A stretch of 64,000 nt of DNA from an uncultured Planctomycetia bacterium (GTDB taxonomy: Bacteria > Omnitrophota > Gorgyraeia > Duberdicusellales > 4484-171). Shown one piece after another: positions 19,448 to 60,800 of this stretch (positions are counted from its first letter, which is position 1; each line of letters begins with the position of its first letter). The stretch covers positions 76,643 through 140,642 of the forward strand of contig CAZVQU010000002.1 in NCBI GenBank assembly GCA_964629655.1, read 5' to 3'. Both the position numbers and the translations under genes were made by a program. The notes below the pieces were generated by a model. That model saw only the letters and a program-made list of their open reading frames with translations, was not told the DNA's origin and ran no database searches.

Positions 19448-20352
19448 ATACGACTTTAAAAGATAAGGCGGCAAATTTCTCATTCATCTTACCGGCTCTG
19501 GTTATTTTCTCACTCTTCTACATTTACCCCTTCTTCTATAGCTTTATCTTAAGCTTAACCAATTATAATATAATCGGTGAATTCAGCTTTCAGGAATCTT
19601 TTGTCGGTCTAAGGAACTTTCAAGATATCGCCAGTGACAATGACTGGTGGAAATCAATGTATAACGGTGCTTTTATCACCTTCTGGGCTCTATCGTTTCA
19701 AAATGTCTTAGCTTTCATGCTGGCCTTAGCAGTAAGCCGAGTAATAAGGATGAATAAGTTTTATCGAGTTATATTCTTTATTCTTCCGGTTCTCTCGGAA
19801 ATTGTTATCGGCCTGCTTTTGCGACGGCTTATGCTTTCTGAGCCTACCGGACGCGATGTCTTAAACCACTTAGTTAATAACCTTGGTTTAGGCTTCCTGG
19901 CTCAAGATTGGATCAGCGGAGAAAGGGTGCGTCTGATTACGGCCTTAGTTCATTGCTGGAAGGGATTTGGCTGGGCTTTTGTAATTTTCCTAGCCGGATT
20001 ACAAAGCATACCTGAACAATTATATGAAGCAGCCAGAATTGATGGTGCAAATGCCTGGCAAAGTTTTCGTAAGATAACCTTGCCGCTTCTCATGCCGGTT
20101 ATTACTTTAATTATGGTCCTTACGATTCTCGGGACTATGTCAGCCTTTGCTATGATTCTGGCTTTAAATCAAGGGGCCGGAGGAGAGACTACAGTTCCAA
20201 TAATGATGATCTATAATCATCTGGGAACCGGCTTAGCCGGATTAGCCTGCGCTGAAGGCTTGGTTCTAGGAGTGGTTCTTATGGCAATATCATTTACAAT
20301 GTTCTTTGTTTCCAAGAAAATAAGGAAAAAATACGGTGTATTACCAGACTAA
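19444..20352 (+). CDS. Sugar ABC transporter permease (MalF/UgpA-like)
   Basis: Six TM helices and EAA-loop region EAARIDGANAWQSFRKITLP. Confidence 0.75.
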   Translation: MNTTLKDKAANFSFILPALVIFSLFYIYPFFYSFILSLTNYNIIGEFSFQESFVGLRNFQDIASDNDWWKSMYNGAFITFWALSFQNVLAFMLALAVSRVIRMNKFYRVIFFILPVLSEIVIGLLLRRLMLSEPTGRDVLNHLVNNLGLGFLAQDWISGERVRLITALVHCWKGFGWAFVIFLAGLQSIPEQLYEAARIDGANAWQSFRKITLPLLMPVITLIMVLTILGTMSAFAMILALNQGAGGETTVPIMMIYNHLGTGLAGLACAEGLVLGVVLMAISFTMFFVSKKIRKKYGVLPD

Positions 20353-21172
20353 AAAAATAGTTACTTTAATAATTCTCCATACCTTTTTATTAAGTATAGC
20401 TCTAAGCTGTATCTTCCCGTTCTTCTGGATGATAAATGCCTCATTTAAGAGTAACGCTGAGTTTAACAGCGACTACGGCTTAAAGCCGGCTTCTAGCCTC
20501 ATCTTAGACAATTACAAAGAGGTTGTTGTTGAGAGCGGGTTTTGGCGCTATTTTTTAAATAGCGTTCTCTACACTTTTACCACAGTCCTTTTAATTGTAT
20601 TTGTCTCATCCTTAGCTGCTTATTCTTTCTCGCGGTTGCAATTTCCCGGGAAAAATATTATATTTTATATGTTCTTGGCAGCAATGATGATACCTCTTCC
20701 GGCTGGTTTTGTTCCGGTCTATGTATTGTTGCAACAGCTAGGGCTCTTAAACCGAACCGGTTATGTTCTGGCCATGAGCAATATGGGCCTATCAATAAGC
20801 ATCTACCTCTTAAAGACCTTCTTCGACCAGCTACCTCGAGATCTAGAGGATGCAGCCAGGATTGATGGCTGCAATAAACTACAGACCTGGTGGAATGTGG
20901 GAATGCCCCTGGTTACCCCGGCTCTGGGAGTAGTTGTGATTTTTAATGCTTTGAATGTATGGAATGAGTTTGTTTTAGCCTCGATTATCTTTGTAAATAA
21001 AAAATATATGCCCTTGCAAGCTGCTCTTCTGCAGTATTCCGGTGAGCAAGTAACTAATCATGTTCTGGTTATGACTGCCTTAACCGTTACGGCTCTGCCG
21101 ATAATTGTCCTCTACGTTCTGATGCAGAAACAATTTGTTAAAGGGATAACCGCAGGAGCAATGGTAGGATGA
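20336..21172 (+). CDS. Sugar ABC transporter permease (MalG/UgpE-like)
   Basis: EAA-loop EDAARIDGCNKLQTWWNVGMP. Confidence 0.75.
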   Translation: MYYQTKKIVTLIILHTFLLSIALSCIFPFFWMINASFKSNAEFNSDYGLKPASSLILDNYKEVVVESGFWRYFLNSVLYTFTTVLLIVFVSSLAAYSFSRLQFPGKNIIFYMFLAAMMIPLPAGFVPVYVLLQQLGLLNRTGYVLAMSNMGLSISIYLLKTFFDQLPRDLEDAARIDGCNKLQTWWNVGMPLVTPALGVVVIFNALNVWNEFVLASIIFVNKKYMPLQAALLQYSGEQVTNHVLVMTALTVTALPIIVLYVLMQKQFVKGITAGAMVG

Positions 21173-23457: not shown

Positions 23458-23494
23458 TATGAACTTGCGTAAAAAGCAAAACAAAGGAGGCAAA

Positions 23495-24673
23495 ATGCGT
23501 AAAGTACTTCTAACTATGGTTTGTTGGGCATTTATTTGCACAACAGCTTTAAATGGTTTCTGTGAAAAGCCGGAAAAAGATTTTTATGTCTATAGTGACA
23601 TGAACTCGCCGCTTAATCACTTCATACCAAGTGGTTGGATGGGAGATCATAATGACATAAGGTTCAATGGGCAAGCAACCGATGAGGTAGCTGCCGGAGC
23701 AACCTCAATTAAGCTAGTCTACACTGCTAAAGGTTCTCAAGGCAATAAGTGGGCTGGGATTTACTGGCAATCTGCACAAAATAACTGGGGCAGCAGAGAA
23801 AGCGGCTATGACTTAAGTGACTTTAATAAATTATTGTTTAAAGCCAAAGGCGCCCAAGGCGGAGAGGTTATAACAGAGATCAATATCGGTGGTATAACGA
23901 CTAACCCCGTTACCGGAGAACCAGTGGCTTTTCCAGACAGTCTTGAAGTTAAATCCGGTCCGATAAGACTAACTAACAAATGGCAGGAATATTCGGTTAA
24001 TTTAGCCGATAAAGACCTCTCTTACGTTAACGGTGGATTAGCGATAGTCTTTAACACTGCTCATGCCGGGGGAGAACAAACAGTCTACTTAGATGATATT
24101 CGCTACACTAAGGAAGAAGGATTGCAGAAAGAGAAAAAGGGAGTAAACCTACCTTTTTATGTTTACGCTGACAGTGTCTCTCTAGATAACCATTATGTTG
24201 CTAGTGGCTGGATGCCAGCAACTGCATCTAAGGATCTAGAATTGAATACTGGTTGGCAAAACTACCCCTTCAGCGGCAATACTTGTATCCGGGTAGGTTA
24301 CAGGAATCTTTCCGGGACTCGTTGGGCCGGAATCTTCTGGCAAAACCCGGCAAATAACTGGGGAACCATACCTAATGCCGGTTTTGATTTACAAGGAGCA
24401 AATAAGCTTACCTTCTGGGCCAGAGGAGACAAAGGAGGAGAGCTAATAACTGAATTTAAAATGGGTGGGCTTGCTAGCGGAGAATACTTTGATTCAGATA
24501 GCGCAAGTATTAGTCAGACTCAATTGACTAAAGAGTGGAAAAAGTACGAGATCGACCTAAGAGGCAGAGATCTCTCTTATGTAATTGGCGGTTTTTGTTG
24601 GTCTACAAGCATTGATGTAAATGATCCTGAAGGTATTGTATTCTACCTTGATGAGATTAAATACGAGAAGTAG
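23495..24673 (+). CDS. Secreted tandem-repeat protein (putative carbohydrate-binding module x2)
   Basis: Two ~190-aa internal repeats (WAGIYWQSAQNNWG...DLSDFNKLLFKAKGAQGGE and WAGIFWQNPANNWG...DLQGANKLTFWARGDKGGE). AAAGGAGG RBS. Signal peptide. Confidence 0.45.
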   Translation: MRKVLLTMVCWAFICTTALNGFCEKPEKDFYVYSDMNSPLNHFIPSGWMGDHNDIRFNGQATDEVAAGATSIKLVYTAKGSQGNKWAGIYWQSAQNNWGSRESGYDLSDFNKLLFKAKGAQGGEVITEINIGGITTNPVTGEPVAFPDSLEVKSGPIRLTNKWQEYSVNLADKDLSYVNGGLAIVFNTAHAGGEQTVYLDDIRYTKEEGLQKEKKGVNLPFYVYADSVSLDNHYVASGWMPATASKDLELNTGWQNYPFSGNTCIRVGYRNLSGTRWAGIFWQNPANNWGTIPNAGFDLQGANKLTFWARGDKGGELITEFKMGGLASGEYFDSDSASISQTQLTKEWKKYEIDLRGRDLSYVIGGFCWSTSIDVNDPEGIVFYLDEIKYEK

Positions 24674-24711
24674 GATTCCAACCAAACCTTAAAAATTGAC
24701 CTGCAATAGTT

Positions 24712-25989
24712 ATGAAGAAAGCTATAGGAATTTTCTGTATCTTGGGGACTATATTTTGCCTCGTAATTACTAACCTATCCGCGGCAGCCCCTGTAGGGAC
24801 GGCTTCGCCAAAACCAATTGAAATAAAACCTACCGAAGAGGGTGGGTACTTACTCTACGTAAATAAAAAACCCTTCCTGATAAAAGGTATCGGCTATAGT
24901 CCTACCCCGATAGGTAAAGGTTATGACTATGACTTATTCTCTGATCCTAACAAACCTTGGCTTGTCGATGGCAAACTAATGAAAAAAGCCAGGATAAATT
25001 GCGTAAGGATATATTCACCGGGAAAAGACCTGGAAAAAACAAGAGAGTTTATAAGAGACATGTACAAGAAGTACGGTATCTACACTATTATGAGCGATTG
25101 GTTAGGCTTATGGGATTATCCCCGGGCGAATTATTCTGACCAAGCTTTCAAAGACATGACAATGAGCAGAATTCTAAAAGTAGTTGAAGCCTTAAAAGAC
25201 GAGAAAGGACTTCTTCTATGGATTCTTGGCAATGAGAATAATTATACCTTCTCAGGTAAAATCGGTTTTTGGACTTCTAAGGAAATAGAAAAAATAGAGG
25301 AACCGCGCCAAAAACAAAAAAGAAGGGCTGAAATCTACTACACCTTTGTTAATGACCTGGCAAAAGAAATTAAAAAGATTGACCCGGTTCATCCGGTAAC
25401 CCTGGGAAACGGCGAGGACGGTTTCCTGACGGTTGCTTCAGGCATCTGTAAAGATATCGACGCTCTATCAATAATTATCTATCGCGGGAAAAGATTTGGC
25501 AATCTCTTTAATAATATCCGAAACTCCTTTGATAAGCCAATCTTACTGTCAGAATTCGGCTGTGACTCTTACAATGCTCATAAAGATTTTGAAGATCAGG
25601 AGATTCAAAGTGAATTCCTGCTAGCGCAATGGGAAGACCTCTACAGCAATACTGCTTTTAGCGGGATAAAAAATGGTAATGCCATAGGTGGAGTGTCTTT
25701 TGAATGGAGCGATGAGTGGTGGAAGTACAATGAGAGCTATGAAGAAGGCTGGCCTATCCACAATAAAGAAGCTACCTGGTCTCACGGAGCCTATTTCTAT
25801 GATATAAGAGCTAAGGATAACCTCAATATGAATGAAGAGTGGTTCGGAATTGTTAGTTTATCCGAACAAATTGTTAATGGCTTAAATAAAAGGTTGCCTA
25901 AAAAATCGTACTATGCTTTATCCAAGTATCTGCCTACTTTGAGATTCGGCTCTCTACGCAGGGCCAAAAAGAAAAGGCTAAGAAGATAA
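24712..25989 (+). CDS. GH2-like (clan GH-A) TIM-barrel protein, paralog
   Basis: WILGNENNYT, LSEFGCDSY and FEWSDEWWKY parallel the motifs of 21169..23457. Signal peptide. Confidence 0.5.
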   Translation: MKKAIGIFCILGTIFCLVITNLSAAAPVGTASPKPIEIKPTEEGGYLLYVNKKPFLIKGIGYSPTPIGKGYDYDLFSDPNKPWLVDGKLMKKARINCVRIYSPGKDLEKTREFIRDMYKKYGIYTIMSDWLGLWDYPRANYSDQAFKDMTMSRILKVVEALKDEKGLLLWILGNENNYTFSGKIGFWTSKEIEKIEEPRQKQKRRAEIYYTFVNDLAKEIKKIDPVHPVTLGNGEDGFLTVASGICKDIDALSIIIYRGKRFGNLFNNIRNSFDKPILLSEFGCDSYNAHKDFEDQEIQSEFLLAQWEDLYSNTAFSGIKNGNAIGGVSFEWSDEWWKYNESYEEGWPIHNKEATWSHGAYFYDIRAKDNLNMNEEWFGIVSLSEQIVNGLNKRLPKKSYYALSKYLPTLRFGSLRRAKKKRLRR

Positions 25990-26910: not shown

Positions 26911-29900
26911 ATGCTTAGCAAAATCAATAACTTTTTCAAATCAATCATCTGCTTGTTAACCTTAGTATCATTCCTAGGCACAACCACTATTACGACCTAT
27001 GCTCAGAGCCTAAGATTACCCGCTCCTAACCAGTTTATACCTTTATCTAATACCTACTCCTTGCCGATCTTAAAAGGTATAAAGATTAACCCTGAAAACC
27101 CCTTTGATGTAGAGTTTATAATCGATTCGGCTGATACGGATCAGATAAAAAAGGAAGAGGCAACCCGCCTTATAATGTACTTCCTGGCGGCATTAACCAT
27201 CCCTAAGGAAGATATCTGGGTCAACCTATCCCCCTATGAACAAGACAGAGTTGTCTCGGGCAACCTTGCCTTAACTGATTTAGGAAAAGATCTTCTAAGT
27301 CAAGACTACGTCTTAAAACAACTAACAGCATCTGTTACTTATCCTGAAAGTAAAGTTGGGGCTGATTTCTGGGCCAAGACCTACAAAGAAGTCTTAGAAG
27401 TGGCCCGAACTACTAATTTGCCAATTAATACCTTTAATAAGATCTGGATAATGCCGGATAAATCTGAGGTCTATGAGAACGGTAACCTCGGGTTCATCAC
27501 CAAAGCAAGCTTAAAGGTAATGCTCGAAGAAGACTATCTGGCAATGAATAATGCTAAAGATCAAAACCAAGGCCTAAGGGGAAATAGCCAAGCTCTGGCC
27601 AAGAAGATAAATGAAGCATCATCGAAGATAATGCGTCAGGTAGTATTACCTAAGATAAACCAAGATGTAAACAATGGTAAGAATTTCGCCACATTGCGTC
27701 AGGTTTATAATTCGATTGTTCTAGGTTTATGGTTTAAAGAGAAGTTCAAAGAGAGTGCCTATAAGCACTATATCAATCAAAATAAAATCAAAGGAATCGA
27801 CATAAAAGATAAGCAAGCCATAGAGAAAATCTATACCCAATATGTAGAAGCCTTTAAACAAGGTCTCTATGACTACATAAAACCAACTTATGACCCTGGT
27901 TCAAGGAAAATGCTAAAGAGAAGATACTACTCCGGAGGGTTTACCCTGGCCAGTAGCACTATTTCAACTAGGAAAACATTGCCCCAGGGTGTTCATTCCT
28001 TAGCCGAATTAGTTTCAGGAAGACCCTTTAAAGTGAACGGTAAAACCCTAGTTGAAACAGTTGAAAACATATGGAGTGAAGTAGATGCATCGAAGAGTCA
28101 ATCTCCTAAAGCCGGCAGTTCGAGCGCGATTAGCATAAATGACTTAAAAATTGCTGTAAATGAACAAAGACTCTTCTATTCACTTAGTGATAATAGAAAA
28201 TTCCCTCGGAATTCTCACGGTCGAGAAGCATTCTATGCGGCTGTTTTAGGTGACGTTGGGAAAAAAGTAGTGGTAACAGGTAAAGGGCTTGAAGTCGAGA
28301 TGGCCAAAGGGGATAGATTCAAAAGATTTCTTGAGAAAGAATCCTATAGCGTTGGTGATATTGGGGTAGAGAAAATCTATCAAGGAGAAGATAACTTTTT
28401 CCAGATGGGATACAAAATCGATGGTCAAGAACTATTGCTTACCTTTAAGAGAAGCACAAACCCTGAAACTGACGGATACTCTGTTCTAGTGCAACCAAGA
28501 ATGAGAATCATCATCAATGGTTATGGAGTTATTGGTAAGAAAGTAGCAGATCTATTGAGGAAGTCAGGTTATGAAATAATCGCTGCAGTAAATACTGGTC
28601 GATTAAGTGCTGATGGAAAAGCTAAACAGCTAACTCATGATGCGATATATAAAGGTTATCCGTTATTTACCGCTTTCGGTGCGGAGAAGTACTTAACCAG
28701 TGCTCGGGAAGCATACTTACCCTACCAAGGAAGCATAACAGACCTTCTAGAGCAATTAAGGAAAGATGGCAAAACTGCTATTGTTGTAGATGCTTCAACT
28801 GGTGGCAAAGGAGATAAAGAAACAAGAACAGGTTGGTTGAATCGAGAACAGCTTTACAAGCCGTATGATGACGTAATTAAAGCAGTTGTATATCAAGGGG
28901 GCGAAAGCCCAGAGGTTGCTGATGCCGCTTTTTCTCTTGATACTGCTGATTGGAGTGAGCTCAATGGCCTTTTTGGAGTACAGATTGTCTCCTGTAATAC
29001 TACCGGGATGAATCGTACCTATAGTGCGCTGAGACAAGCCTTGCTGGAAGCGGGTATTGATGCAAAGATCGTTATTGATAACAATGCACTTAGAAGAGAA
29101 GGGGATCCCGGTGCTGAGAAACCTGGAAAAACAGATGAGGTTCAGCTTAACGGTAGCAATACGGCTTTGTCGAAACAAATCGAAACGTCTTTGAATATAG
29201 GGGGAGCTAATGTTGATACTGTAACGACGTCGGCCAAAGGATTTTATGTCCATATAGCTACTTTAAGAAGTGATCTTAGCATAGAGGAGTTAAAAGAAAG
29301 GCTTTTCTCAGATAGGGCCGCGTACTTGGAGAGGCTAGATCAAGACATTCCAATTTCCCATATTCAAATAATCCAGGATAAGAGTTCAAAATTCGAAACA
29401 TCAAACTTATACAAGCAGGTATTTGAATCGAGTTCTCATTCTCCTGAGGAAGTTATGGTAGTTAACGTAATGCCTTCTGATATCCCGGGAGAAATAAAGG
29501 TAGTCTTTGGTTATTCCATGGATATAAAAGTGCCCAATAAAACAGATCCAGCAGTCTATGGAATAAATGCACTTTTCGCCCCGCTTAGAAATAGGCTTGA
29601 TGTATACCTTGATAACTTAGCATACATTCCTGGAGGGAATTTGGGCAGTCAGTTGGGAGGGATCTCGGTTGTTCCTAAATATCACCATGGAGACGACCTC
29701 AAACAAACCTTTAGAGATGTAGATAGTGCTGTTTTAGGAGCTGTAAATACACCGGCTTCTATGGTTCCAAGCACTCACTATCATGTTCATGTTGCAACGA
29801 TAAAAAGCAAAGGATTAACTGCCCCGATGGTAAGGGGAGCTTTAAAACAACACTCTCGCATGGCACTAGTAGATTTTCCGAATGGTATTTTTTCAAGCGC

Positions 29901-30453
29901 ACTGTTGTTTGAGGTAATCAACTCCGGGATAGGTGAAGAGGTAATCGGTGGTTCGCATCCCATGGTAATCATTTCCCAGGTAAAAGAGTCTCATATTCCA
30001 GGAGAAATAAAGGTTATCTATGCTGTTCCGCAAGAATCCGATGTAGTACCAGAAAACGCTAATGCTGTTCATGCTATCTTAGGAACATTCTCTAAGGGAG
30101 AATCGCGTAGAATAGTTGATGAAATATTACAACTGGATAGGATTAAACAGGGAATCGAAGTAAGGCTTCCAGTTGTAGAAAACTTGATAGTAACCTCCGG
30201 CGAGACGAAGAAAGCCCAAACAGCAGCAAGTTCGGGGATAAATTCAGAAGCTTCCCGCACGATAACGGAGAAGGCTTCAAGGCCATGGCAAACAGGTGGT
30301 ATTGACCTACAAAGCACAGTGGCAAAAACAGCACCGGGTTCAACAAGTTTAAGTTTTAACCTAACTGACTTTGATTTAGCTAATTTTAGCGGTCTCAAAT
30401 TCAAAGTTACTAAGGTCGAACAGATAACCGTTGGAGAGCTAGACAGTTTCTAA
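26911..30453 (+). CDS. 1180-aa signal-peptide protein containing an archaeal-type (type II) GAPDH domain plus a second partial catalytic-domain copy
   Basis: Residues ~531-700 read IIINGYGVIGKKVAD ... VYQGGESPEVADAAFSLD ... VQIVSCNTTGMNRT (archaeal GAPDH SCNTT catalytic motif, Cys codon 28993-28995). Downstream segments VPKYHHGDD, HYHVHVATIK and IPGEIKVIYAVPQESDVVPEN repeat archaeal-GAPDH C-domain motifs a second time. The N-terminal ~500 aa have no recognisable domain. Confidence 0.6.
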   Translation: MLSKINNFFKSIICLLTLVSFLGTTTITTYAQSLRLPAPNQFIPLSNTYSLPILKGIKINPENPFDVEFIIDSADTDQIKKEEATRLIMYFLAALTIPKEDIWVNLSPYEQDRVVSGNLALTDLGKDLLSQDYVLKQLTASVTYPESKVGADFWAKTYKEVLEVARTTNLPINTFNKIWIMPDKSEVYENGNLGFITKASLKVMLEEDYLAMNNAKDQNQGLRGNSQALAKKINEASSKIMRQVVLPKINQDVNNGKNFATLRQVYNSIVLGLWFKEKFKESAYKHYINQNKIKGIDIKDKQAIEKIYTQYVEAFKQGLYDYIKPTYDPGSRKMLKRRYYSGGFTLASSTISTRKTLPQGVHSLAELVSGRPFKVNGKTLVETVENIWSEVDASKSQSPKAGSSSAISINDLKIAVNEQRLFYSLSDNRKFPRNSHGREAFYAAVLGDVGKKVVVTGKGLEVEMAKGDRFKRFLEKESYSVGDIGVEKIYQGEDNFFQMGYKIDGQELLLTFKRSTNPETDGYSVLVQPRMRIIINGYGVIGKKVADLLRKSGYEIIAAVNTGRLSADGKAKQLTHDAIYKGYPLFTAFGAEKYLTSAREAYLPYQGSITDLLEQLRKDGKTAIVVDASTGGKGDKETRTGWLNREQLYKPYDDVIKAVVYQGGESPEVADAAFSLDTADWSELNGLFGVQIVSCNTTGMNRTYSALRQALLEAGIDAKIVIDNNALRREGDPGAEKPGKTDEVQLNGSNTALSKQIETSLNIGGANVDTVTTSAKGFYVHIATLRSDLSIEELKERLFSDRAAYLERLDQDIPISHIQIIQDKSSKFETSNLYKQVFESSSHSPEEVMVVNVMPSDIPGEIKVVFGYSMDIKVPNKTDPAVYGINALFAPLRNRLDVYLDNLAYIPGGNLGSQLGGISVVPKYHHGDDLKQTFRDVDSAVLGAVNTPASMVPSTHYHVHVATIKSKGLTAPMVRGALKQHSRMALVDFPNGIFSSALLFEVINSGIGEEVIGGSHPMVIISQVKESHIPGEIKVIYAVPQESDVVPENANAVHAILGTFSKGESRRIVDEILQLDRIKQGIEVRLPVVENLIVTSGETKKAQTAASSGINSEASRTITEKASRPWQTGGIDLQSTVAKTAPGSTSLSFNLTDFDLANFSGLKFKVTKVEQITVGELDSF

Positions 30454-46782: not shown

Positions 46783-47868
46783 GTGAAAACGATAAGTGTT
46801 AAATTAAAAAAGAATCCTTACAAAATCCGCATTGGCTATAGACTTCTGAAAGAGGTTCCCAAATACATAAAAAGCCTTAAACTTGGCAATTTCGGCTTAG
46901 TTATTACCTCTCCGAAGATCCTCTCGCTCCACGGAAAGGGGATCAGAAGGGCTTTTGGTAGCAAAAACTATAAGATAACTACGGTTATCGACGGCGAAAA
47001 GGCTAAATCCAAAAAGTGGCTAAACAAAGTAATAAGCGAGGTAGTAAAGGCCGACGCCTTAAACCGAAAAATATTTATTATATGCCTTGGCGGAGGCACT
47101 ATCGGTGATTTAGGGGGTTTTGTAGCCTCGATCTACAAGCGCGGCATACCCTACATCCAGATTCCGACCACACTCCTGGGACAAATCGACTCTAGTATCG
47201 GCGGTAAAACTGCGATTGACCTAAAAGAGGCAAAAAATATCCTCGGCGCCTTTTACCAGCCTAAGGCTGTATTTATTGATCCCGGGTTCTTAAAAACCCT
47301 CTCAGTGAGAGAGATGAGACAAGGTTTAGCTGAAGCGATAAAGTATGGGGTAATAAAAGATAAAGAATTCTTTGATTTTCTCAAAAAAAATCATAAGAAA
47401 ATCTTAAAACTCGACTCAATCTGCATCTTAAAGTTGATTTCAGTCTGCACAGGCATAAAAGCAAAGATAGTAGCTGCAGATGAGCGAGAAAAAAGGGGAT
47501 TGCGGACAATTCTTAACTTTGGACACACTCTTGCTCATGCTTTAGAAAGTTCTCTGCAATATAAGCGGTTATCTCACGGAGAAGCAGTTTCTTTGGGAAT
47601 GCTTTACGCAGCTCACCTTTCAAAAGTTCTCAAAAAATGCTCTGAGGAAGAAGTTAACCAGATAGAGGAAATCCTCAAGCTGTTTTTCCTTCCAATCAAG
47701 GTAAAGTTTAGAGTTCTAACTCTTTATAAGTCATTGACTTATGACAAGAAGTTTGTTTCAGGAAAAATCCGAATGGTAATCTTACGAAAAATCGGAAGAG
47801 TAGAGGTAGTTGAAGGAATTTCTCCCCAAAATATCAAAAGAACCCTTAAACTTTTCGCCTCACGTTGA
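46783..47868 (+). CDS. aroB: 3-dehydroquinate synthase
   Basis: LGGGTIGDLGGFVAS and a metal-binding His cluster. Confidence 0.85.
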   Translation: MKTISVKLKKNPYKIRIGYRLLKEVPKYIKSLKLGNFGLVITSPKILSLHGKGIRRAFGSKNYKITTVIDGEKAKSKKWLNKVISEVVKADALNRKIFIICLGGGTIGDLGGFVASIYKRGIPYIQIPTTLLGQIDSSIGGKTAIDLKEAKNILGAFYQPKAVFIDPGFLKTLSVREMRQGLAEAIKYGVIKDKEFFDFLKKNHKKILKLDSICILKLISVCTGIKAKIVAADEREKRGLRTILNFGHTLAHALESSLQYKRLSHGEAVSLGMLYAAHLSKVLKKCSEEEVNQIEEILKLFFLPIKVKFRVLTLYKSLTYDKKFVSGKIRMVILRKIGRVEVVEGISPQNIKRTLKLFASR

Positions 47869-47929
47869 CAAAGACATATATATATGTTATATTCTAATGT
47901 ACCGTCCGAATGTAAACGTTTTAAAAAAT

Positions 47930-48259
47930 ATGAGTGATAAGAGAAAATTTCCTAGAGTAGATGTTTCGTTTCCGATTGAATACAAGCCACTTCCGGCCCG
48001 AAATTATTTTTACACTGTAAGTAAAGATTTAAGTCTTGGCGGAGTAAAGATTGTAAGCAATTATTTTCTGCCTAAAAACGATACCGTGAAGGTAAACGTA
48101 AACCTTATTGACAGCATACTGGGCCTGAAGGCAAAAGTAGCTTGGTGCAACAAGGAAAGGCTATCAGAAAGGTATTCTACCGGACTAGAATTCGTAGAAA
48201 CTACCGAGAGTTCCAAAAAGCGTTTATTCCAATTTCTAAACCGAATATTCAACGTCTAA
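47930..48259 (+). CDS. PilZ-domain protein
   Basis: RKFPRV plus a downstream D/S...G c-di-GMP motif. The ORF track starts earlier, at 47810. Confidence 0.6.
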   Translation: MSDKRKFPRVDVSFPIEYKPLPARNYFYTVSKDLSLGGVKIVSNYFLPKNDTVKVNVNLIDSILGLKAKVAWCNKERLSERYSTGLEFVETTESSKKRLFQFLNRIFNV

Positions 48260-48260
48260 A

Positions 48261-48410
48261 ATGGCAAAAGCAGAAGAAAAAAGAAAAAATTGTCTTAGTT
48301 GCAATAAATCCTTAAGAAGGGTAGATTGGTATTACCGGAACAACGGTTATTACTGCAACAAGTCTTGCTTCAAAACCCACCTGGCAAAAAAAGAATCTGC
48401 GCAAAGTTAA
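48261..48410 (+). CDS. 49-aa C4 zinc-ribbon protein
   Basis: MAKAEEKRKNCLSCNK...YYCNKSCF. Its TAA overlaps the ATG of the next PilZ gene (TAATG). Not in the ORF track (<60 aa). Confidence 0.45.
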   Translation: MAKAEEKRKNCLSCNKSLRRVDWYYRNNGYYCNKSCFKTHLAKKESAQS

Positions 48411-48763
48411 TGAAAGAAAAACGACAATGCCCCCGCGTAGAGAAAATCCTGCCAATAAAGTTATCGGTCAGTGATTTTGACGTCCTTACTGAAACCAATA
48501 ATATTAGCGCCAGCGGAGCCTATTTTCCAGTAGACAAACCGCTAGAGTTAATGAGCAAGCTAAATGTTGTTCTTCTGATTCCGCTTAAGAGGAATCGGGG
48601 TAAGACCATAGAGAAAATTAACTGTGTCGGAGTTATTGTCCGTTGTGAAATCTCTGCAGAGAGCACAAAGCACCCTTATCGGGCAGCAATGTATTTTAGC
48701 GATTTAAGTGACCGTGACCGAAAAATACTTCGTACCTTTGTAAATCCTTTTCTAAAATCGTAA
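48410..48763 (+). CDS. PilZ-domain protein
   Basis: RQCPRV and ISASGAYF. Confidence 0.6.
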   Translation: MKEKRQCPRVEKILPIKLSVSDFDVLTETNNISASGAYFPVDKPLELMSKLNVVLLIPLKRNRGKTIEKINCVGVIVRCEISAESTKHPYRAAMYFSDLSDRDRKILRTFVNPFLKS

Positions 48764-49811: not shown

Positions 49812-50750
49812 ATGGTTACAGATTTAGAAAAAAAAGCTGCATTAGCTAAAACCTCTGCCAACTGCTTAGAAAAACGCTTAGAAAGTTGTGATATCTGCCC
49901 TCGAGACTGCAAGGTAAACCGTCTAAGGGGTGAAACAGGTTACTGCGGAACTGATCAAGACATGGTGGTTTACAGCGCTTTCTTACACCACGGAGAAGAA
50001 CCGGGAATAAGCGGACAAAAAGGGAGCGGTACTATATTCTTCTCTGGCTGTAACCTCAAGTGCATCTATTGCCAGAATTATAAATTCTCCCACACTGTAG
50101 TGGGCAAGAAAGTTTCGGTAATTGATTTAGCTAAAATTATGCTCGACCTTCAGGAGCAGGGAGCTCACAATATAAATCTAGTAACTCCTACGCATTTCCT
50201 GCCACAAATTTTAAATACCTTGGCTTTAGCATTTAAAGGCGGCCTTAGTATTCCGATTGTCTATAATACTTCGGGGTATGAGAAAGAAGAGACCGTTAAG
50301 TATCTTGAAGGAATAGTAGACATCTACTTAACCGACCTTAAATATATGGAGATTTCACTGGCAAAACTATATTCTAAGGCCTCAGGATACCCTGAATTTG
50401 CCTCTAGAAGCCTCCTGGAAATGGATAGGCAGGTTGAACCCCTAACCAGCAAAAATTTGCTAAAAAAAGGGGTAGTTATCAGACACCTTGTGCTTCCTAA
50501 TCACGTCAATCAATCAAAAAAACTGCTATCCTGGATAAAAGGAAATACTCCTAGGGTTTTAGTAAGCGTGATGTTTCAATACCAACCTTACTATAGAGCT
50601 TATCTTCATCCTCAGATAAACCGGTCAATAAATTACCAGGAATACCTTGAAATTAAGAATTTTGTCGAGGAATTGAGGCTTGGAGGCTGGGTCCAAGAAC
50701 ATACCCCCGAAGAGGATTTAGCCGGACCTTATTTTGAACCAAATATCTAA
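49812..50750 (+). CDS. AmmeMemoRadiSam-system radical SAM enzyme (AmrS-like)
   Basis: CNLKCIYCQN CxxxCxxC. N-terminal CDICPRDC...GETGYCG. Confidence 0.7.
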   Translation: MVTDLEKKAALAKTSANCLEKRLESCDICPRDCKVNRLRGETGYCGTDQDMVVYSAFLHHGEEPGISGQKGSGTIFFSGCNLKCIYCQNYKFSHTVVGKKVSVIDLAKIMLDLQEQGAHNINLVTPTHFLPQILNTLALAFKGGLSIPIVYNTSGYEKEETVKYLEGIVDIYLTDLKYMEISLAKLYSKASGYPEFASRSLLEMDRQVEPLTSKNLLKKGVVIRHLVLPNHVNQSKKLLSWIKGNTPRVLVSVMFQYQPYYRAYLHPQINRSINYQEYLEIKNFVEELRLGGWVQEHTPEEDLAGPYFEPNI

Positions 50751-50817
50751 AATTGTGGTATAATTGCTTACCTGTTAAGTGACTAGTGACTACTTAGATA
50801 AAAGGAGGAAGGCTGAG

Positions 50818-51513
50818 ATGAAAAAAGCAATAGTTTTCTTGGTTATAAGTTGTTTTTACCTTTCAATAACTGTTTTAGCCGAAAGTGATCTCTCACGGGT
50901 AGGTAAAAAATTTAGATCTTTTACTAAAGAATCTCGAAAAGGGATTGCCGAACTTTCTGAGGAAGAGTTCGAAGCCTTGGTAGATGATGTTATCGAGATA
51001 TCCCTGAAAGAGTTTGAGAGAGACTTTGGTGATCTTCCTAATTACACGCCGGTCTCCCAAGAAGAAAAAGAAGCCGGAAAACAAGAAGTCATGAAGCTGA
51101 TCAGGGCCAATCCTGAACTGTTAGAAGAATCAAGAGATGAAACCGGAGAAATTACTGCTAAAAATTTAGTTGAAACACTGAATAATTATAGCAAAAAAGA
51201 AACAAAGGAGACCTATCTTATCGTAGCCCAGGGCAATATAGCAATGCTAGAAACATCTTTAGCTTTATACGAACTTGATAATGGGTTTTACCCTAGCACT
51301 AGCCAGGGCTTACTGGCATTACTTGAGAAACCAACATCAGGACCAACACCAACCGCCTGGAACGGTCCTTATCTGCCTAAGATGATTGAAGACCCTTGGG
51401 AAAATTCTTATCACTATGTTTACCCCGGTATTCACAATAAAGACAAATTTGATATCTCATCCTACGGTCCGGATGAGGTTGAAAGCGACGACGACATTAA
51501 CAACTGGGACTAA
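50818..51513 (+). CDS. Sec-signal-peptide protein with C-terminal GspG (T2SS major pseudopilin) globular domain
   Basis: LYELDNGFYPSTSQGL ... DPWENSYHYVYPG ... SYGPDEVESDDDINNW matches the GspG C-domain. There is no GFTLIE prepilin motif. AAGGAGG RBS. Confidence 0.55.
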   Translation: MKKAIVFLVISCFYLSITVLAESDLSRVGKKFRSFTKESRKGIAELSEEEFEALVDDVIEISLKEFERDFGDLPNYTPVSQEEKEAGKQEVMKLIRANPELLEESRDETGEITAKNLVETLNNYSKKETKETYLIVAQGNIAMLETSLALYELDNGFYPSTSQGLLALLEKPTSGPTPTAWNGPYLPKMIEDPWENSYHYVYPGIHNKDKFDISSYGPDEVESDDDINNWD

Positions 51514-51642
51514 AAATAAATTTAGCTAATGCCTCGAGAAAGAATAACTAGAAGGCAGAAAAATATATCCCGGTTGCTACGGGAAAAGAAGCAGGCTCAC
51601 AAAGGTAAATTAAAGGCCTTGAAGAAAAAGTAGGAGGTGGCT

Positions 51643-51774
51643 ATGAGCTGGAAGATGTTTTTGCAAATCGTGCTGTTGATCGTTATTGCTGCGGTAGTAA
51701 TGCTAGGATCAAAATGCGCTCTTTATAAGGGCGGGCTTAAGTGCTATAAGAGCACAATGCATATGAAGCGGTAG
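51643..51774 (+). CDS. 43-aa small membrane protein (putative)
   Basis: TAGGAGGTGG RBS 5 nt upstream and a single TM helix. Confidence 0.35.
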   Translation: MSWKMFLQIVLLIVIAAVVMLGSKCALYKGGLKCYKSTMHMKR

Positions 51775-51845
51775 GTAAAGGTAGCTGAGAATTACTATCC
51801 TAAATAATCGGGCTCGGAGGAGAAAGGAATTAAGATTGGTTTGCC

Positions 51846-52124
51846 CTAGCGAGTCTTTTTAGTGAAAAATCCCACTTTCTTCTCTTTTTCCGGGCCTTTT
51901 ATAATTATATGATGGATATTGCAAGTAGGGATAATGGCCAGGTCTTCTTCGCCTAAGTTCACATCTATTATTATTAAAGGTTCAAAATTAACTACATTCG
52001 GTTCAATAATCTTATAAATTGAGTTAGTTTCGTAAGATTTACCATCGTTAAGGTAGATAACAGCTGTATTGCTTTTATTTTTCTTTAAAAATTCTTCAGT
52101 GGTCTTTATGGCAATGATATCCAT
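51846..52124 (-). CDS. Hypothetical protein
   Basis: 92-aa ORF with GGAGG-like RBS. No recognisable motif. Confidence 0.35.
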   Translation of the reverse strand: MDIIAIKTTEEFLKKNKSNTAVIYLNDGKSYETNSIYKIIEPNVVNFEPLIIIDVNLGEEDLAIIPTCNIHHIIIKGPEKEKKVGFFTKKTR

Positions 52125-52267: not shown

Positions 52268-53773
52268 ATGAAAATTTACCTAGCTGGTTTTAATGTCGAC
52301 ACCGAAGTATTACGGCAATTAGAAGAAGCGGGCGGAAAACGCACCGATATAACCCCTGAAGTTCTTTCAGCTGCTTATGCCCGAATAAGCCGGGACCCTC
52401 GGCCAATAAATGAGATCAGAAAGACTTCCCGGGAAGAAGTAGATAAATCCCGTAAATCTAACTCTGCTATTATCTTTAAAATGGGGCACCATTCAGTTGC
52501 TGAACATGCTGTATTTAATCTAGATATACTCGGGGTCTCAAGGTATGTGATGGAGGAAGTAGAAAAATTCAGGCTTTGCGCTTATACTGAAAAATCCCAA
52601 CGTTATATCACCCTTGATAAGGATCACGTCATCCCTGATGAGATAAAAGGCTCCTCGCTTGAGAAAACTTTTCTAGATATGATTCAGGAGCAGAATGAAA
52701 TGTATTTTACTCTCCTTGAGAAGCTGAAAAAGCATGTCTTTAATAAAAATCCTGAACTGGCAAAAGATCCTAAGAAACACAACCTCTTAGAAGGCTGGGC
52801 CAAAGAGGATGCCCGATATATTGTAGCCCTAGCTACTGAAACCCAGGTCGGCCAAACTATTAACGCCCGCAATGCTGAACTGTTGCTACGAAGATTTGCA
52901 TCACACCCATTATCCGAAGTTAAGAAGTTAGGACGGGCAATATATGAGCAAATTTCCAGTATTGCTCCTTCGATTGTAATTTTTCATGAGGTCAATGACC
53001 GCGATAGCAAGACCTATCCTGAATTGAAAAAACTTAGTGATAGAATTTTAGATGATGCTTGCAACCATAAAGAAAAAGAGGACGTAGAGTTGGTTGAGCA
53101 CACTCAAGATGCTGATAATATTATCGCTGCTTCCCTGCTCCACGCCTCATCAGGCCTTTCCTTTGAGAAGTGCAAGAATAAAGTAAAAAGCCTTGGTGAA
53201 AGGGAAAAGTTGGAGATTTTTAAAACATCTTGGCGAAATATGCAGCTTTATGATTCGATGCTAAGAGAATTTGAATATGTGAATTTGACCTTTAATATTA
53301 TTCTTTCATCTGCCTGCTTTGGCCAGCTTAAAAGGCACCGGATGTCAACAATCACTTCTCAAGCCTATGACCCCAGCCTGGGAATTACCATTCCTGAATC
53401 AATTAAAGAAATTGGCATGGAGGATGAGTTTAACAGGGTTGTTGATAAGACTAATCGGGTATATAATCAAATAAATAAAGAAATCCCTTTAGCAGCTCCT
53501 TATGTACTGACCAATGCCCATAAAAGGAGGGTATTAATACGAGTAAATGCTAGAGAGCTCTACCATATTTCACGACTAAGGGAAGATGCTCACGCCCAAT
53601 GGGATATTCAGAATATTTCAAGAGTTATGGCTAGTAAGGCAAAAAAAGTAATGCCTCTTACCTTTGCGCTCATCGGTGGTAAAGATAAGTATAGCCAAAT
53701 CTATGCAAAGCTTTACGGAGAACTTCCCAAGGTAACCCAAGTGGCTTTACCGGGAGCAAGGAAGATAGGCTAG
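52268..53773 (+). CDS. thyX: FAD-dependent thymidylate synthase ThyX, tandem-domain form
   Basis: C-terminal half carries the ThyX signature RHRMSTITS. The N-terminal half is a degenerate ThyX-like repeat. Confidence 0.7.
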   Translation: MKIYLAGFNVDTEVLRQLEEAGGKRTDITPEVLSAAYARISRDPRPINEIRKTSREEVDKSRKSNSAIIFKMGHHSVAEHAVFNLDILGVSRYVMEEVEKFRLCAYTEKSQRYITLDKDHVIPDEIKGSSLEKTFLDMIQEQNEMYFTLLEKLKKHVFNKNPELAKDPKKHNLLEGWAKEDARYIVALATETQVGQTINARNAELLLRRFASHPLSEVKKLGRAIYEQISSIAPSIVIFHEVNDRDSKTYPELKKLSDRILDDACNHKEKEDVELVEHTQDADNIIAASLLHASSGLSFEKCKNKVKSLGEREKLEIFKTSWRNMQLYDSMLREFEYVNLTFNIILSSACFGQLKRHRMSTITSQAYDPSLGITIPESIKEIGMEDEFNRVVDKTNRVYNQINKEIPLAAPYVLTNAHKRRVLIRVNARELYHISRLREDAHAQWDIQNISRVMASKAKKVMPLTFALIGGKDKYSQIYAKLYGELPKVTQVALPGARKIG

Positions 53774-60410: not shown

Positions 60411-60800
60411 ATGTACACAAAAAAAATCGTAGACAAAAGGGAATATATAAGATTTAACTCCGAAGGTAAAATTAATCTTCAAATTCAAAAGAAAGGACAA
60501 GACCAAACTCCTTCTGATAAGACTTCTACCATAGCTAAAAATTTGAGCATTAAAGGGATTTGTTTTATCTACGATAAGAATTTAACACCCGGCGATATTA
60601 TTAAGTTGGAAATCGTTCTTCTTCCTCAAACGCGGCCTTTGCATTTAGAAGGACAGGTAAAGTGGGTTAACCCCCTAAAGCCAACCGAGAATACAGAAGT
60701 ATTTGAGACCGGGGTAGAGCTTTTTACACTTAAAGAAAATGACGAAAGCCGATTTATTAAATATACATTTGAAAAAGTGATCGGGTGTTTAAGCCAATAA
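60411..60800 (+). CDS. PilZ-like domain protein
   Basis: REYIRF and LSIKGICFIY fit a PilZ-like pattern. Confidence 0.4.
   Translation: MYTKKIVDKREYIRFNSEGKINLQIQKKGQDQTPSDKTSTIAKNLSIKGICFIYDKNLTPGDIIKLEIVLLPQTRPLHLEGQVKWVNPLKPTENTEVFETGVELFTLKENDESRFIKYTFEKVIGCLSQ

What the first reader, a model, noticed from the sequence alone, without database searches (positions are those of the whole stretch)
50818..51513. GspG pseudopilin globular domain delivered by a Sec signal peptide instead of a prepilin leader
The C-terminal 100 residues match the type II secretion major pseudopilin domain (LYELDNGFYPSTSQGL...DPWENSYHYVYPG...SYGPDEVESDDDINNW). The N-terminus is instead a classical signal peptide (MKKAIVFLVISCFYLSITVLA) followed by ~110 acidic residues. 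No GFTLIE processing site or hydrophobic alpha1-N helix is present. This could be a soluble periplasmic pseudopilin-domain protein, acting as a decoy or adaptor, rather than a pilus subunit. No other T2SS or type IV pilus genes are in the window.
Basis: partly seen in the sequence, partly recalled or inferred. Interest (0 to 1): 0.5.

Follow-up and report, generated by a model that had tools for sequence, protein, structure and literature searches.

The report
Pseudopilin head exported without its pilus helix
An uncultured Omnitrophota bacterium encodes a conserved copy of the type II secretion pseudopilin GspG that has swapped its pilus-building N-terminal helix for an ordinary secretion signal plus a unique helical domain, so it most likely works as a free periplasmic protein rather than a filament subunit.

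Summary
ORF 50818-51513 (231 aa) has a GspG globular domain at residues 132-231 (Pfam PF08334, E=2.3e-27). It has no prepilin leader, no Glu5 and no hydrophobic alpha1-N helix. The N-terminus is a Sec/SPase-I-type signal peptide, followed by an acidic, helical, orphan 110-aa region.

It is a real gene. At least 22 orthologues exist in one narrow Omnitrophota clade, always in the same housekeeping neighbourhood. dN/dS is 0.15-0.18 in both halves.

The calcium-loop ligands are kept. The inter-subunit salt-bridge pair needed for pseudopilus assembly (PulG D48/R87) is oppositely charged in 99/101 canonical relatives but in only 1/17 family members. This argues the protein no longer polymerises.

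No T2SS or type IV pilus genes are in the window. Metagenomes hold at least three further non-prepilin GspG-head architectures: two Sec-type forms with short linkers, and one zinc-ribbon plus TM form. The phenomenon is therefore wider than this gene.

The function (decoy, adaptor or something unrelated) is inferred, not shown. Cleavage and localisation are untested.

Verdict: a new variant of a known kind, of moderate interest. The closest analogue is Geobacter PilA-C.

The parts
50756..50764 (+). Extended -10 promoter-like element TGGTATAAT, inside an AAAATTGTGrTATAATT block that is invariant or nearly so and lies directly after the stop of the upstream radical-SAM gene
   Evidence: Alignment of six orthologous intergenic regions (A3). 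The consensus scan did not list it because there is no -35 match. Promoter function is inferred.
50804..50808 (+). Shine-Dalgarno GGAGG, 9 nt upstream of ATG 50818
   Evidence: Sequence. The AAAAGGAGG block is conserved in orthologous loci.
50818..50880 (+). Signal peptide, residues 1-21 (MKKAIVFLVISCFYLSITVLA), with predicted SPase I site after V-L-A
   Evidence: Hydropathy. In 17 orthologues, position -1 is A or G, position -3 is V/A/I, and S at -6 is nearly invariant. It resembles other SPI-type N-termini of this genome and differs from its lipoproteins. Cleavage is not tested.
50881..50952 (+). Residues 22-45: low-confidence (probably disordered) segment holding the conserved motif D-L-S-x-x-G-K-K-L-K-S-F (S26 and K30 invariant)
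   Evidence: pLDDT below 50 for residues 1-41
50953..51210 (+). Residues 46-131: lineage-specific acidic helical domain (helices 48-70, 81-97, 100-104, and the start of helix 114-155)
51211..51510 (+). Residues 132-231: GspG (T2SSG) globular head, including alpha1-C
   Evidence: dN/dS is 0.155.
51463..51495 (+). Residues 216-226 (Y-G-P-D-E-V-E-S-D-D-D): calcium-binding loop. D219/S223/D225/D226 align with PulG D117/S122/D124/D125.
   Evidence: Alignment with PulG and 101 canonical relatives. Ligand identities come from PMC13081927. Calcium binding itself is inferred.
51511..51513 (+). Stop codon TAA

Best explanation
The gene encodes a diverged paralogue of the Omnitrophota major pseudopilin GspG. 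The class III (prepilin) leader and the hydrophobic alpha1-N polymerisation helix have been replaced. In their place are a Sec/SPase-I signal peptide, a short conserved disordered segment, and a lineage-specific acidic helical domain whose last helix is continuous with alpha1-C.

**Shown.**
- This architecture.
- Conservation and purifying selection on both halves.
- Retention of the GspG fold core and calcium-loop ligands.
- Loss of the inter-subunit salt-bridge signature of filament-forming GspG.
- A stand-alone genomic position, with what looks like its own promoter and a Shine-Dalgarno site.

**Inferred.**
- The precursor is exported by Sec and cleaved after Ala21.
- It folds in the periplasm as a soluble, very acidic (net about -20), calcium-stabilised, monomeric or non-filamentous protein.
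- The new helical domain covers or replaces what alpha1-N used to do.

**Most speculative step.** Because the head surface is still GspG-like, the protein would bind something that normally recognises the pseudopilin head, such as assembly-platform, secretin or pseudopilus components, or their cargo. It would then modulate T2SS/T4P-type machinery rather than being built into it.
For: **GspG head.**

**No prepilin motif or upstream start.**

**A conserved family.** 17 full-length orthologous clusters plus 5 metagenome loci share the same N-terminal design. Synteny is conserved in housekeeping surroundings.

**Selection.** dN/dS against the 89%-identical orthologue is 0.18 for the N-domain and 0.155 for the head.

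**Calcium ligands conserved.**

**Filament interface lost.**
- PulG D48/R87 equivalents are oppositely charged in 99/101 canonical relatives, with charge-swap covariation. They are oppositely charged in 1/17 family members.
- The R88 equivalent is basic in 100/101 canonical relatives against 9/17 family members.
- These bridges are reported as essential for pilus assembly (PMC13081927).

**Signal peptide.**
- Small residues at -1 and -3 and Ser at -6 are conserved.
- The peptide matches other SPI-type signals of the same genome. Its true lipoproteins have LIAG|C or FLA|C followed by polar residues.

**Extracytoplasmic folding.** Four family members carry a paired-Cys variant (EC..PDC) in the N-domain, consistent with folding outside the cytoplasm.

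**Specificity of the architecture.** 101/103 nearest non-family relatives and 77/80 genome loci carry the prepilin motif. The exceptions are truncated or aberrant gene calls, a contig-end fragment, or (two of the loci) family members.
Against: - No signal-peptide predictor could be run, so cleavage and solubility are unproven.
- The most conserved part of the signal is [S/G]-C-F-C-L-S, which resembles a lipobox.
- The AF2 models are only moderate (mean pLDDT 66 and 71), from a 16-17-sequence alignment. The calcium-loop region is modelled with low confidence.
- No T2SS genes or partner could be tied to this genome. Only 64 kb of a 599-kb contig is visible.
- Gene neighbourhood gives no functional hint.
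- Loss of the salt bridge shows relaxed filament constraint. It does not say what the protein does instead.
Confidence: 0.6

Rival explanations
1. **Membrane-tethered variant.** The N-terminal hydrophobic segment is not removed by SPase I. It stays either as a signal anchor (a bitopic inner-membrane protein) or as a lipoprotein signal cleaved before Cys12. The helical domain and GspG head are then held at the membrane, for instance next to the assembly platform.
For: The hydrophobic stretch is 18 residues long. The motif [VIA][IVMFL][SG]-C is present in 16/17 members and is the best-conserved part of the signal. A related type D form (L114/L132) clearly uses a zinc ribbon plus a TM helix.
Against: Cys12 lies only 8 residues after the KK. 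It is followed by 9 more hydrophobic residues and then a canonical V-x-A site. My recollection of PROSITE PS51257 is that it requires Cys at positions 15-35 with no charged residue in the 10 preceding positions, which fails here. Real lipoproteins in this genome look different, and Cys within SPI h-regions is common in this genome. Small residues at -1 and -3 and Ser at -6 are conserved as expected for SPase I.
Confidence: 0.2
2. **Split-pilin head, as in Geobacter PilA-N/PilA-C.** The Sec-exported head docks non-covalently on a short, headless prepilin encoded elsewhere in the genome, and the pair polymerises into a filament.
For: A precedent exists. GSU1497 is a pilin globular domain encoded separately with its own signal peptide (PMC5174107). 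Short conductive-type pilins are predicted in many Omnitrophota (PMC10066038).
Against: No prepilin-type ORF lies in any frame of the 64-kb window, nor next to the gene in any orthologous locus. In Geobacter the two genes are adjacent. The head-to-head filament contacts (positions 48/87/88) are degraded. The protein carries an extra 110-aa domain that PilA-C lacks.
Confidence: 0.08
3. **Neo-functionalised module unrelated to type II secretion.** The GspG head is reused simply as a stable calcium-binding scaffold in a very acidic periplasmic, surface or secreted protein. It could buffer cations, act in the matrix or envelope, or mediate host contact. It would have no interaction with T2SS/T4P machines.
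For: The gene is a stand-alone locus among housekeeping genes in every genome. It has a strongly acidic composition: head net charge is -13 against -5.6 in canonical relatives, and the whole protein is -10 to -34. It has an orphan N-domain. Tandem duplication and subtype divergence occur in some genomes.
Against: Nothing positive points to an alternative activity. The head remains 55-63% identical to neighbouring canonical GspG, with the same invariant core motifs, so recognition surfaces may persist.
Confidence: 0.25
4. **Annotation or assembly artefact.** This would be a canonical gspG with a mis-called start, a frameshift or a chimeric contig.
For: None found.
Against: An in-frame stop lies directly upstream. 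Identical sequence is seen on 6 independent contigs. Orthologues at 53-89% identity share the same architecture. Purifying selection acts on the N-terminal half.
Confidence: 0.01

Closest known systems
GspG / PulG / XcpT / EpsG, the major pseudopilin (endopilin) of the type II secretion system (Pfam PF08334, TIGR01710)
   Same: Both have the same globular head: alpha1-C, the alpha-beta loop, the beta-sheet and a C-terminal calcium loop with D117/S122/D124/D125 equivalents. The window protein is 34-48% identical to solved structures and 55-63% identical to Omnitrophota GspG.
   Different: The window protein has no class III leader, no Gly-1/Phe+1/Glu+5, and no hydrophobic alpha1-N. It has a Sec-type signal and a 110-aa orphan helical domain instead. 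The inter-subunit salt-bridge pair is lost, the protein is more acidic, and the gene is not in a gsp operon (canonical operons).
Geobacter sulfurreducens PilA-C (GSU1497, 'Spc')
   Same: Both are a type IV-filament subunit head domain made as a separate polypeptide with its own non-prepilin signal peptide (PMC5174107).
   Different: PilA-C derives from a type IVa pilin, not from GspG. It is encoded next to its partner PilA-N and, from my own knowledge (Gu et al. 2021, not read here), is built into the filament with it. The window protein has no adjacent pilin, has an extra N-domain, and has degraded filament contacts.
Laboratory constructs of N-terminally truncated pseudopilins or pilins exported with a Sec signal
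   Same: Both have the same design: the alpha1-N helix is removed so that the head is soluble. PDB 1T92 is titled 'N-terminal truncated pseudopilin PulG'. The abstract of bioRxiv 10.64898/2026.02.09.704877 covers expression of soluble minor pilins.
   Different: Those are artificial. Here evolution has produced and maintained the design, and added a new helical domain.
Other non-prepilin GspG-head ORFs found here in metagenomes: type B (L113), type C (L138/L142/L150) and type D (L114/L132)
   Same: All have a PF08334 head of the same 'YDLSSYGPD' subfamily without N_methyl. Types B and C have Sec-like signals, and all are stand-alone genes.
   Different: Types B and C have only a 25-30-aa linker instead of the 110-aa domain. 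Type D has a cytoplasmic zinc ribbon plus a TM helix, and in L114 keeps the K48/E87 pair (L132 has D/E). Whether all share one origin is unresolved: bootstrap support is 8-14 of 47.

Membership tests
T2SS major pseudopilin GspG (TIGR01710 / PF07963+PF08334) | T2SSG globular domain | tested here: met
   PF08334 E=2.3e-27. PDB GspG chains match at E down to 2.6e-21. Foldseek probability is 1.0.
T2SS major pseudopilin GspG (TIGR01710 / PF07963+PF08334) | Class III (prepilin) signal: short basic leader, Gly-1, Phe/Met+1, Glu+5 (N_methyl, PF07963) | tested here: not met
   There is no PF07963 hit and no motif in the ORF or in any frame of the window. It is present in 101/103 nearest non-family relatives.
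T2SS major pseudopilin GspG (TIGR01710 / PF07963+PF08334) | Hydrophobic alpha1-N helix contiguous with alpha1-C (the polymerisation core) | tested here: not met
   TIGR01710 aligns only from profile position 35. Residues 114-131 preceding alpha1-C are hydrophilic.
T2SS major pseudopilin GspG (TIGR01710 / PF07963+PF08334) | Calcium-binding loop ligands (PulG D117, S/T122, D124/D125) | tested here: met
   D219, S223, D225 and D226 are aligned and conserved in 15-17 of 17 members. Ligand identities come from PMC13081927. Binding itself is not measured.
T2SS major pseudopilin GspG (TIGR01710 / PF07963+PF08334) | Inter-subunit salt bridges (PulG E44/D48 with R87/R88) needed for assembly | tested here: not met
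   Positions 48/87 are oppositely charged in 99/101 canonical relatives against 1/17 family members. Position 88 is basic in 100/101 against 9/17.
T2SS major pseudopilin GspG (TIGR01710 / PF07963+PF08334) | Encoded in a gsp operon (gspE-F-G-H-I-J-K...) | tested here: not met
   The window and all orthologous loci show radical SAM, then this gene, then small ORFs, then ThyX. The nearest canonical GspG genes sit after GspE/GspF. The rest of the genome is not visible.
Sec/SPase I secretory precursor | Basic n-region, hydrophobic h-region, and c-region with small uncharged residues at -3 and -1 | tested here: met
   The peptide reads MKK / AIVFLVISCFYL / SITVLA|E. Across 17 orthologues, -1 is A/G and -3 is V/A/I. 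It is similar to other exported proteins of the window. This is a rule-based inspection only; no SignalP was run.
Sec/SPase I secretory precursor | Actual cleavage and periplasmic or extracellular location | not testable with these tools
   This needs N-terminal sequencing or fractionation.
Bacterial lipoprotein (SPase II) | Lipobox L-[AS]-[GA]-C placed after an adequate h-region, with Cys followed by a polar mature sequence | tested here: not met
   V-I-S-C12 fits the residue pattern. However, Cys lies only 8 residues after KK and is followed by FYLSITVLA. Genuine lipoproteins in the window are LIAG|CAAGKPKED and FLA|CAPSR. The PROSITE position rule is recalled from memory.
Split pilin head (Geobacter PilA-C/GSU1497 type) | Head domain with its own non-prepilin signal peptide | tested here: met
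   The precedent is in PMC5174107.
Split pilin head (Geobacter PilA-C/GSU1497 type) | Adjacent or co-occurring short headless prepilin partner | tested here: not met
   No prepilin motif lies in six frames of the 64-kb window, and none is among the neighbours in orthologous loci. Presence elsewhere in the genome is not testable.

The most novel reading that the evidence does not exclude
Omnitrophota, and perhaps other phyla rich in type IV-filament machines, contain an unrecognised class of pseudopilin heads that have been detached from the filament. These heads are exported by Sec, or anchored by unrelated TM segments. Four distinct N-terminal designs were seen here. They would act as free periplasmic regulators, decoys or adaptors of T2SS/T4P-like machines. 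Alternatively, they could act as detachable heads for short headless pilins. Either way, this would be a new layer of control or modularity in type IV-filament systems.
Probability: 0.2. Interest if true: 0.7.

Novelty: new variant of a known kind. Interest (0 to 1): 0.45.

Why it matters
Type IV-filament subunits are defined by their class III signal and by the hydrophobic helix that drives polymerisation. The head is thought to function only as part of the fibre.

This gene is a naturally maintained, selected pseudopilin head that enters the periplasm by the general Sec route. It has shed the filament contacts but kept the calcium site. That shows the head can have a life of its own. It offers a natural soluble probe for what recognises the GspG head (platform, secretin, cargo).

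It also matters for annotation. TIGR01710 just passes its cut-off, so pipelines will call this protein 'type II secretion system major pseudopilin GspG'. That label may inflate T2SS calls in Omnitrophota MAGs.

The practical impact is limited until a function or partner is shown.

Tried and rejected
**1. Cryptic upstream start restoring a prepilin leader: rejected.** An in-frame stop lies at 50776-50778. The GTG-50779 extension has no motif.

**3. N-domain as an internal duplication of alpha1-C: rejected.** I compared ISLKEFERDFGDLP with TSLALYELDNGFYP. hhalign found only the overlapping LIIA residues. 114 of 1000 shuffles reached the local alignment score.

**4. Conserved 5'-UTR hairpin: not supported.** RNAalifold found no consensus structure. 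Single-sequence folds are significant in only 3 of 6 species, and not in the window.

**5. Phage origin: no evidence.** No relatives were found in 2.9 million viral contigs.

**6. Single origin of all non-prepilin forms: unresolved.** An NJ tree groups them, but bootstrap support is 8-14 of 47.

**7. Canonical T2SS in the same genome: could not be tested.**
- The nearest canonical GspG genes (P0018, P0019) lie in gspE-F-G operons, but on contigs of other samples or MAGs.

**8. Lipoprotein reading: considered and judged less likely**.

**9. Organism names from the cluster look-up: none returned**. The phylum was instead assigned from ThiC relatives, where every named hit is Omnitrophica/Omnitrophota. 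The two GTDB representative MAGs that carry the family are labelled 'uncultured Planctomycetia'. I regard that as a labelling issue.

Full report
**What is there**

The ORF 50818-51513 (+) encodes 231 aa. A GGAGG lies 9 nt upstream of the ATG. An in-frame stop lies at 50776-50778. The only possible extension (GTG 50779) adds 13 polar residues.

Residues 132-228 match Pfam T2SSG (PF08334, E=2.3e-27). TIGR01710 'major pseudopilin GspG' scores 89.5 bits against a cut-off of 88.85, but aligns only to profile positions 35-134, so the N-terminal third of the model is unmatched. Solved GspG-family heads (XcpT 2KEP, PulG 1T92/5O2Y, EHEC GspG 3G20, EpsG 3FU1/4LW9) match at E=1e-21 to 1e-14. Foldseek places the AF2 model on them with probability 1.0.

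Residues 1-21 are MKK followed by 18 uncharged residues ending V-L-A before Glu22. Residues 22-131 are acidic, with 18 K/R against 28 D/E. There is no N_methyl hit and no G-F-T-L-I-E-type motif in the ORF or anywhere in the six frames of the window.

**It is a real, selected gene family**

A search of 5.8e9 proteins returned 17 clusters with the same length and architecture (53-100% identity, full coverage, PF08334 only). After these there is a sharp drop to roughly 140-aa canonical GspG proteins that match only the head.

- Of those 103 further hits, 101 carry a prepilin motif. The other two are a truncated and an aberrant gene call.
- In GTDB species representatives, 77 of 80 related loci are canonical. 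The exceptions are two family members and one contig-end fragment.
- A metagenome scan added five more members.

All orthologues sit in the same place: PilZ, PilZ, DUF4416, response regulator (minus strand), radical SAM, this gene, small ORFs, a 92-aa ORF (minus strand), an optional PilZ, then a double-domain ThyX.

Nei-Gojobori dN/dS against the 89%-identical orthologue is 0.18 for the N-domain and 0.155 for the head. More distant pairs give 0.19-0.56 and 0.11-0.31.

All named ThiC relatives of the window, from 91% down to 65% identity, are Candidatus Omnitrophica/Omnitrophota. About 20 ThiC clusters lie at 82% identity or above before a gap to 74%. The family therefore appears to fill one genus- or family-level clade.

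**The N-terminal half**

AF2 was run on 16-17-sequence alignments and gave mean pLDDT of 66 and 71. It predicts residues 1-41 as low-confidence. It then predicts helices 48-70, 81-97 and 100-104, and a 42-residue helix 114-155 that runs without a break into alpha1-C of the GspG head. pLDDT across this region is mostly about 70-89.

The domain has no detectable relatives.
- A profile search of 1.84e9 representative proteins found only the family itself.
- An apparent resemblance to alpha1-C is not significant.

Compared with canonical relatives, the start of alpha1-C has become more hydrophobic (L-I-I-A at 134-137) and has lost conserved charged positions. These are K/R at 133 and D at 140. This is what one would expect if the new helices pack on it, but that is inference.

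Four members replace EFERDFGDxPDY with EC(R)Q(T)PDC, a Cys pair that arises together. This fits an oxidising, extracytoplasmic location.

**The export signal**

Across the family, position -1 is A (14) or G (3), position -3 is V, A or I, and Ser at -6 is nearly invariant. The residues after the site are acidic or small.

Other exported proteins of the same window serve as calibrators.
- SPase-I-type signals look the same and often contain Cys in the h-region, for example MRKKFKLILFFSLCFLFSSLSLYA|KD.
- The two clear lipoproteins have LIAG|C and FLA|C after 15 or more residues, followed by polar sequence.

The conserved [S/G]-C-F-C-L-S core does fit a lipobox residue pattern. However, Cys12 comes only eight residues after the lysines and is followed by nine hydrophobic residues. 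I therefore favour Sec/SPase I with cleavage at 21|22. I keep a tethered form as a rival, and stress that no predictor or experiment was available.

**Does it still behave like a filament subunit?**

I aligned the family with 101 canonical relatives and PulG. The core motifs are invariant in both groups: Y-E-L-D-N-G-x-Y-P-x-T-x-Q-G-L, D-P-W, Y-x-Y-x-x-P-G and N-W. The calcium ligands reported for PulG/OutG are conserved as D219/S223/D225/D226. Those ligands are D117, S/T122 and D125, with D124 possibly contributing (PMC13081927).

The same paper states that salt bridges between E44/D48 of one subunit and R87/R88 of the next are essential for pilus assembly.
- In the canonical Omnitrophota-like set, the 48/87 pair is oppositely charged in 99/101 sequences and shows charge-swap covariation (K-E 58, D-K 37, K-D 3, D-R 1).
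- In the family it is oppositely charged in 1/17, and position 48 is mostly A/S/T/V/M/L.
- Position 88 is basic in 100/101 canonical sequences against 9/17 family members.
- The head is also much more acidic, with net charge -13 against -5.6.

Together with the missing alpha1-N and Glu5, this is direct sequence evidence that the constraints of filament assembly have been lifted while the constraints of folding remain.

**Context and partners**

Pfam scans of about 60 ORFs across the window found no GspC-M, secretin, PilB/C/M-Q or prepilin peptidase genes. They found only three PilZ c-di-GMP receptor domains.

The gene appears to be its own transcription unit. An AAAATTGTGrTATAATT block containing an extended -10 element (TGnTATAAT) is invariant or nearly so in six species, directly after the upstream stop codon.

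The nearest canonical GspG genes (58-63% identical heads) lie in ordinary gspE-gspF-gspG-minor-pseudopilin operons, but on contigs from other samples. Whether this clade has a T2SS could not be established. Omnitrophota in general are rich in T4aP, Tad and T2SS-like loci and in predicted short pilins (PMC10066038; bioRxiv 10.64898/2026.06.07.730766).

**The phenomenon is wider than this gene**

Among the 80 best metagenome loci, I found three further architectures with a strong PF08334 head (E of about 1e-28 to 1e-30) and no prepilin motif.

| Type | Loci | N-terminal design | PulG 48/87 equivalents |
|---|---|---|---|
| B | L113, on a 171-kb contig | MKKVIVWVIGLVLGISFVFIPKICWA\|DG plus about 25 aa | F/K |
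| C | L138, L142, L150 | MKKILFSLVSLLIFLSLVFSA\|KPAESK plus about 30 aa | E/G, D/G |
| D | L114, L132 | Zinc ribbon plus TM helix plus about 35 aa | K/E in L114, D/E in L132 |

All are stand-alone genes. Types B and C have lost the 48/87 pair. Only L114 of type D keeps an opposite-charge pair; L132 has D and E, which carry the same charge.

An NJ tree unites all non-prepilin forms, but bootstrap support is weak. Family A is recovered in 43/47 replicates, A+B+C in 14/47, and all forms in 8/47. Single or repeated origin is therefore open.

In one MAG contig the family gene is tandemly duplicated into two subtypes.

**Comparison with what is known**

The protein works like, and descends from, GspG's head. 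It fails four defining features of a major pseudopilin: the class III signal, alpha1-N, the assembly salt bridges and the operon context. I therefore do not file it as GspG, even though TIGR01710 narrowly passes its cut-off.

The closest natural analogue is Geobacter PilA-C/GSU1497, a pilin head made separately with its own signal peptide (PMC5174107). That head is encoded beside its short-pilin partner. Here there is none within 64 kb.

The closest artificial analogue is the truncated, Sec-exported pseudopilin used for structural work (for example 1T92). Full-text searches for PF08334/T2SSG, and for soluble or signal-peptide pseudopilins, found no description of such natural proteins.

**Verdict**

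The finding is real and the anatomical interpretation is right. The 'not a pilus subunit' claim is now supported by independent sequence evidence. The 'decoy or adaptor' function remains a hypothesis.

It is a new variant of a known kind. It is of moderate interest to type II secretion and type IV filament specialists, and useful as an annotation warning.

Noticed in passing
window 51529-51633 (+): An uncalled 34-aa, very basic ORF (MPRERITRRQKNISRLLREKKQAHKGKLKALKKK) starts 15 nt after the stop of the GspG-like gene. It is 94-97% identical in protein across species whose GspG-like genes are only 55-61% identical. Codon changes are 11-13 synonymous against 1-2 nonsynonymous. It has no Pfam or NCBIfam hit and is not listed by the gene callers of the source assemblies.
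   Followed up: partly
window 51643-51774 (+): A 43-aa single-TM peptide (MSWKMFLQIVLLIVIAAVVMLGSK...) with its own GGAGG site is conserved at 67-78% identity in L005, L007 and L090. A terminator-like hairpin follows at 51838-51855. It may be co-transcribed with the GspG-like gene.
   Followed up: partly
L008 10001-10675 and 10715-~11400; L009 2772-3446 and 3486-3950: The Sec-type GspG gene is tandemly duplicated in MAG contig CAZHVO010000014.1 and in one ENA contig. One copy is of the two-Cys 'ECRQTPDCE' subtype and the other of the P0009/P0003 subtype. The window has a single copy.
   Followed up: yes
L113 9830-10267; L142 777-1202; L150 1359-1784; L138 1971-2420; L114 4421-4975; L132 3-509: These are other non-prepilin GspG-head proteins in metagenomes. 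Two are Sec-signal forms with short linkers. One has an N-terminal zinc ribbon plus a TM helix. None lies next to T2SS genes.
   Followed up: partly
alignment of P0018-P0120: Canonical Omnitrophota-like GspG proteins show clean charge-swap covariation at the PulG D48/R87 inter-subunit positions (K-E in 58, D-K in 37). This is a sequence-only signature of filament assembly that could be used to classify pseudopilin paralogues.
   Followed up: yes
P0009, P0017 (L005 9953-10609): Two family members carry a 10-residue deletion in the alpha3-beta1 loop (window residues about 174-183). That loop is reported to set secretion specificity in PulG/OutG (PMC13081927).
   Followed up: no
window 50750-50766: The block AAAATTGTGGTATAATT (extended -10, TGnTATAAT) is nearly invariant in six species immediately after the radical-SAM stop codon. 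The following 25-30 nt are variable and palindromic in some species, but do not form a consistent hairpin.
   Followed up: yes
window 52268-53773 (+): ThyX is 501 aa with two Thy1 (PF02511) stretches, about twice the usual length. This suggests a fused tandem ThyX. It is conserved in all orthologous loci (501-510 aa).
   Followed up: no
window 51846-52124 (-): A 92-aa ORF on the opposite strand has no Pfam or NCBIfam match. It is present at the same position in every orthologous locus and has a near-consensus sigma-70 promoter (TTGACA-16-TAGAAT, 52171-52144).
   Followed up: no
window 47810-48763 and 60411-60800: There are three stand-alone PilZ-domain proteins in 64 kb, and a fourth next to the locus in some relatives. 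This points to heavy use of c-di-GMP receptors in this clade.
   Followed up: no
window 26911-30453 (+) and 21169-25989 (+): A 1180-aa secreted protein has no significant Pfam domain. It lies downstream of two signal-peptide-bearing GH2/GH72-like TIM-barrel proteins and a sugar ABC transporter (18116-21172). This may be an extracellular polysaccharide-degradation locus.
   Followed up: no
L010, L011 record titles: The two GTDB representative MAGs that carry the family are labelled 'uncultured Planctomycetia bacterium'. Yet every named ThiC relative of the window is Omnitrophota, so the MAGs are probably mislabelled.
   Followed up: partly
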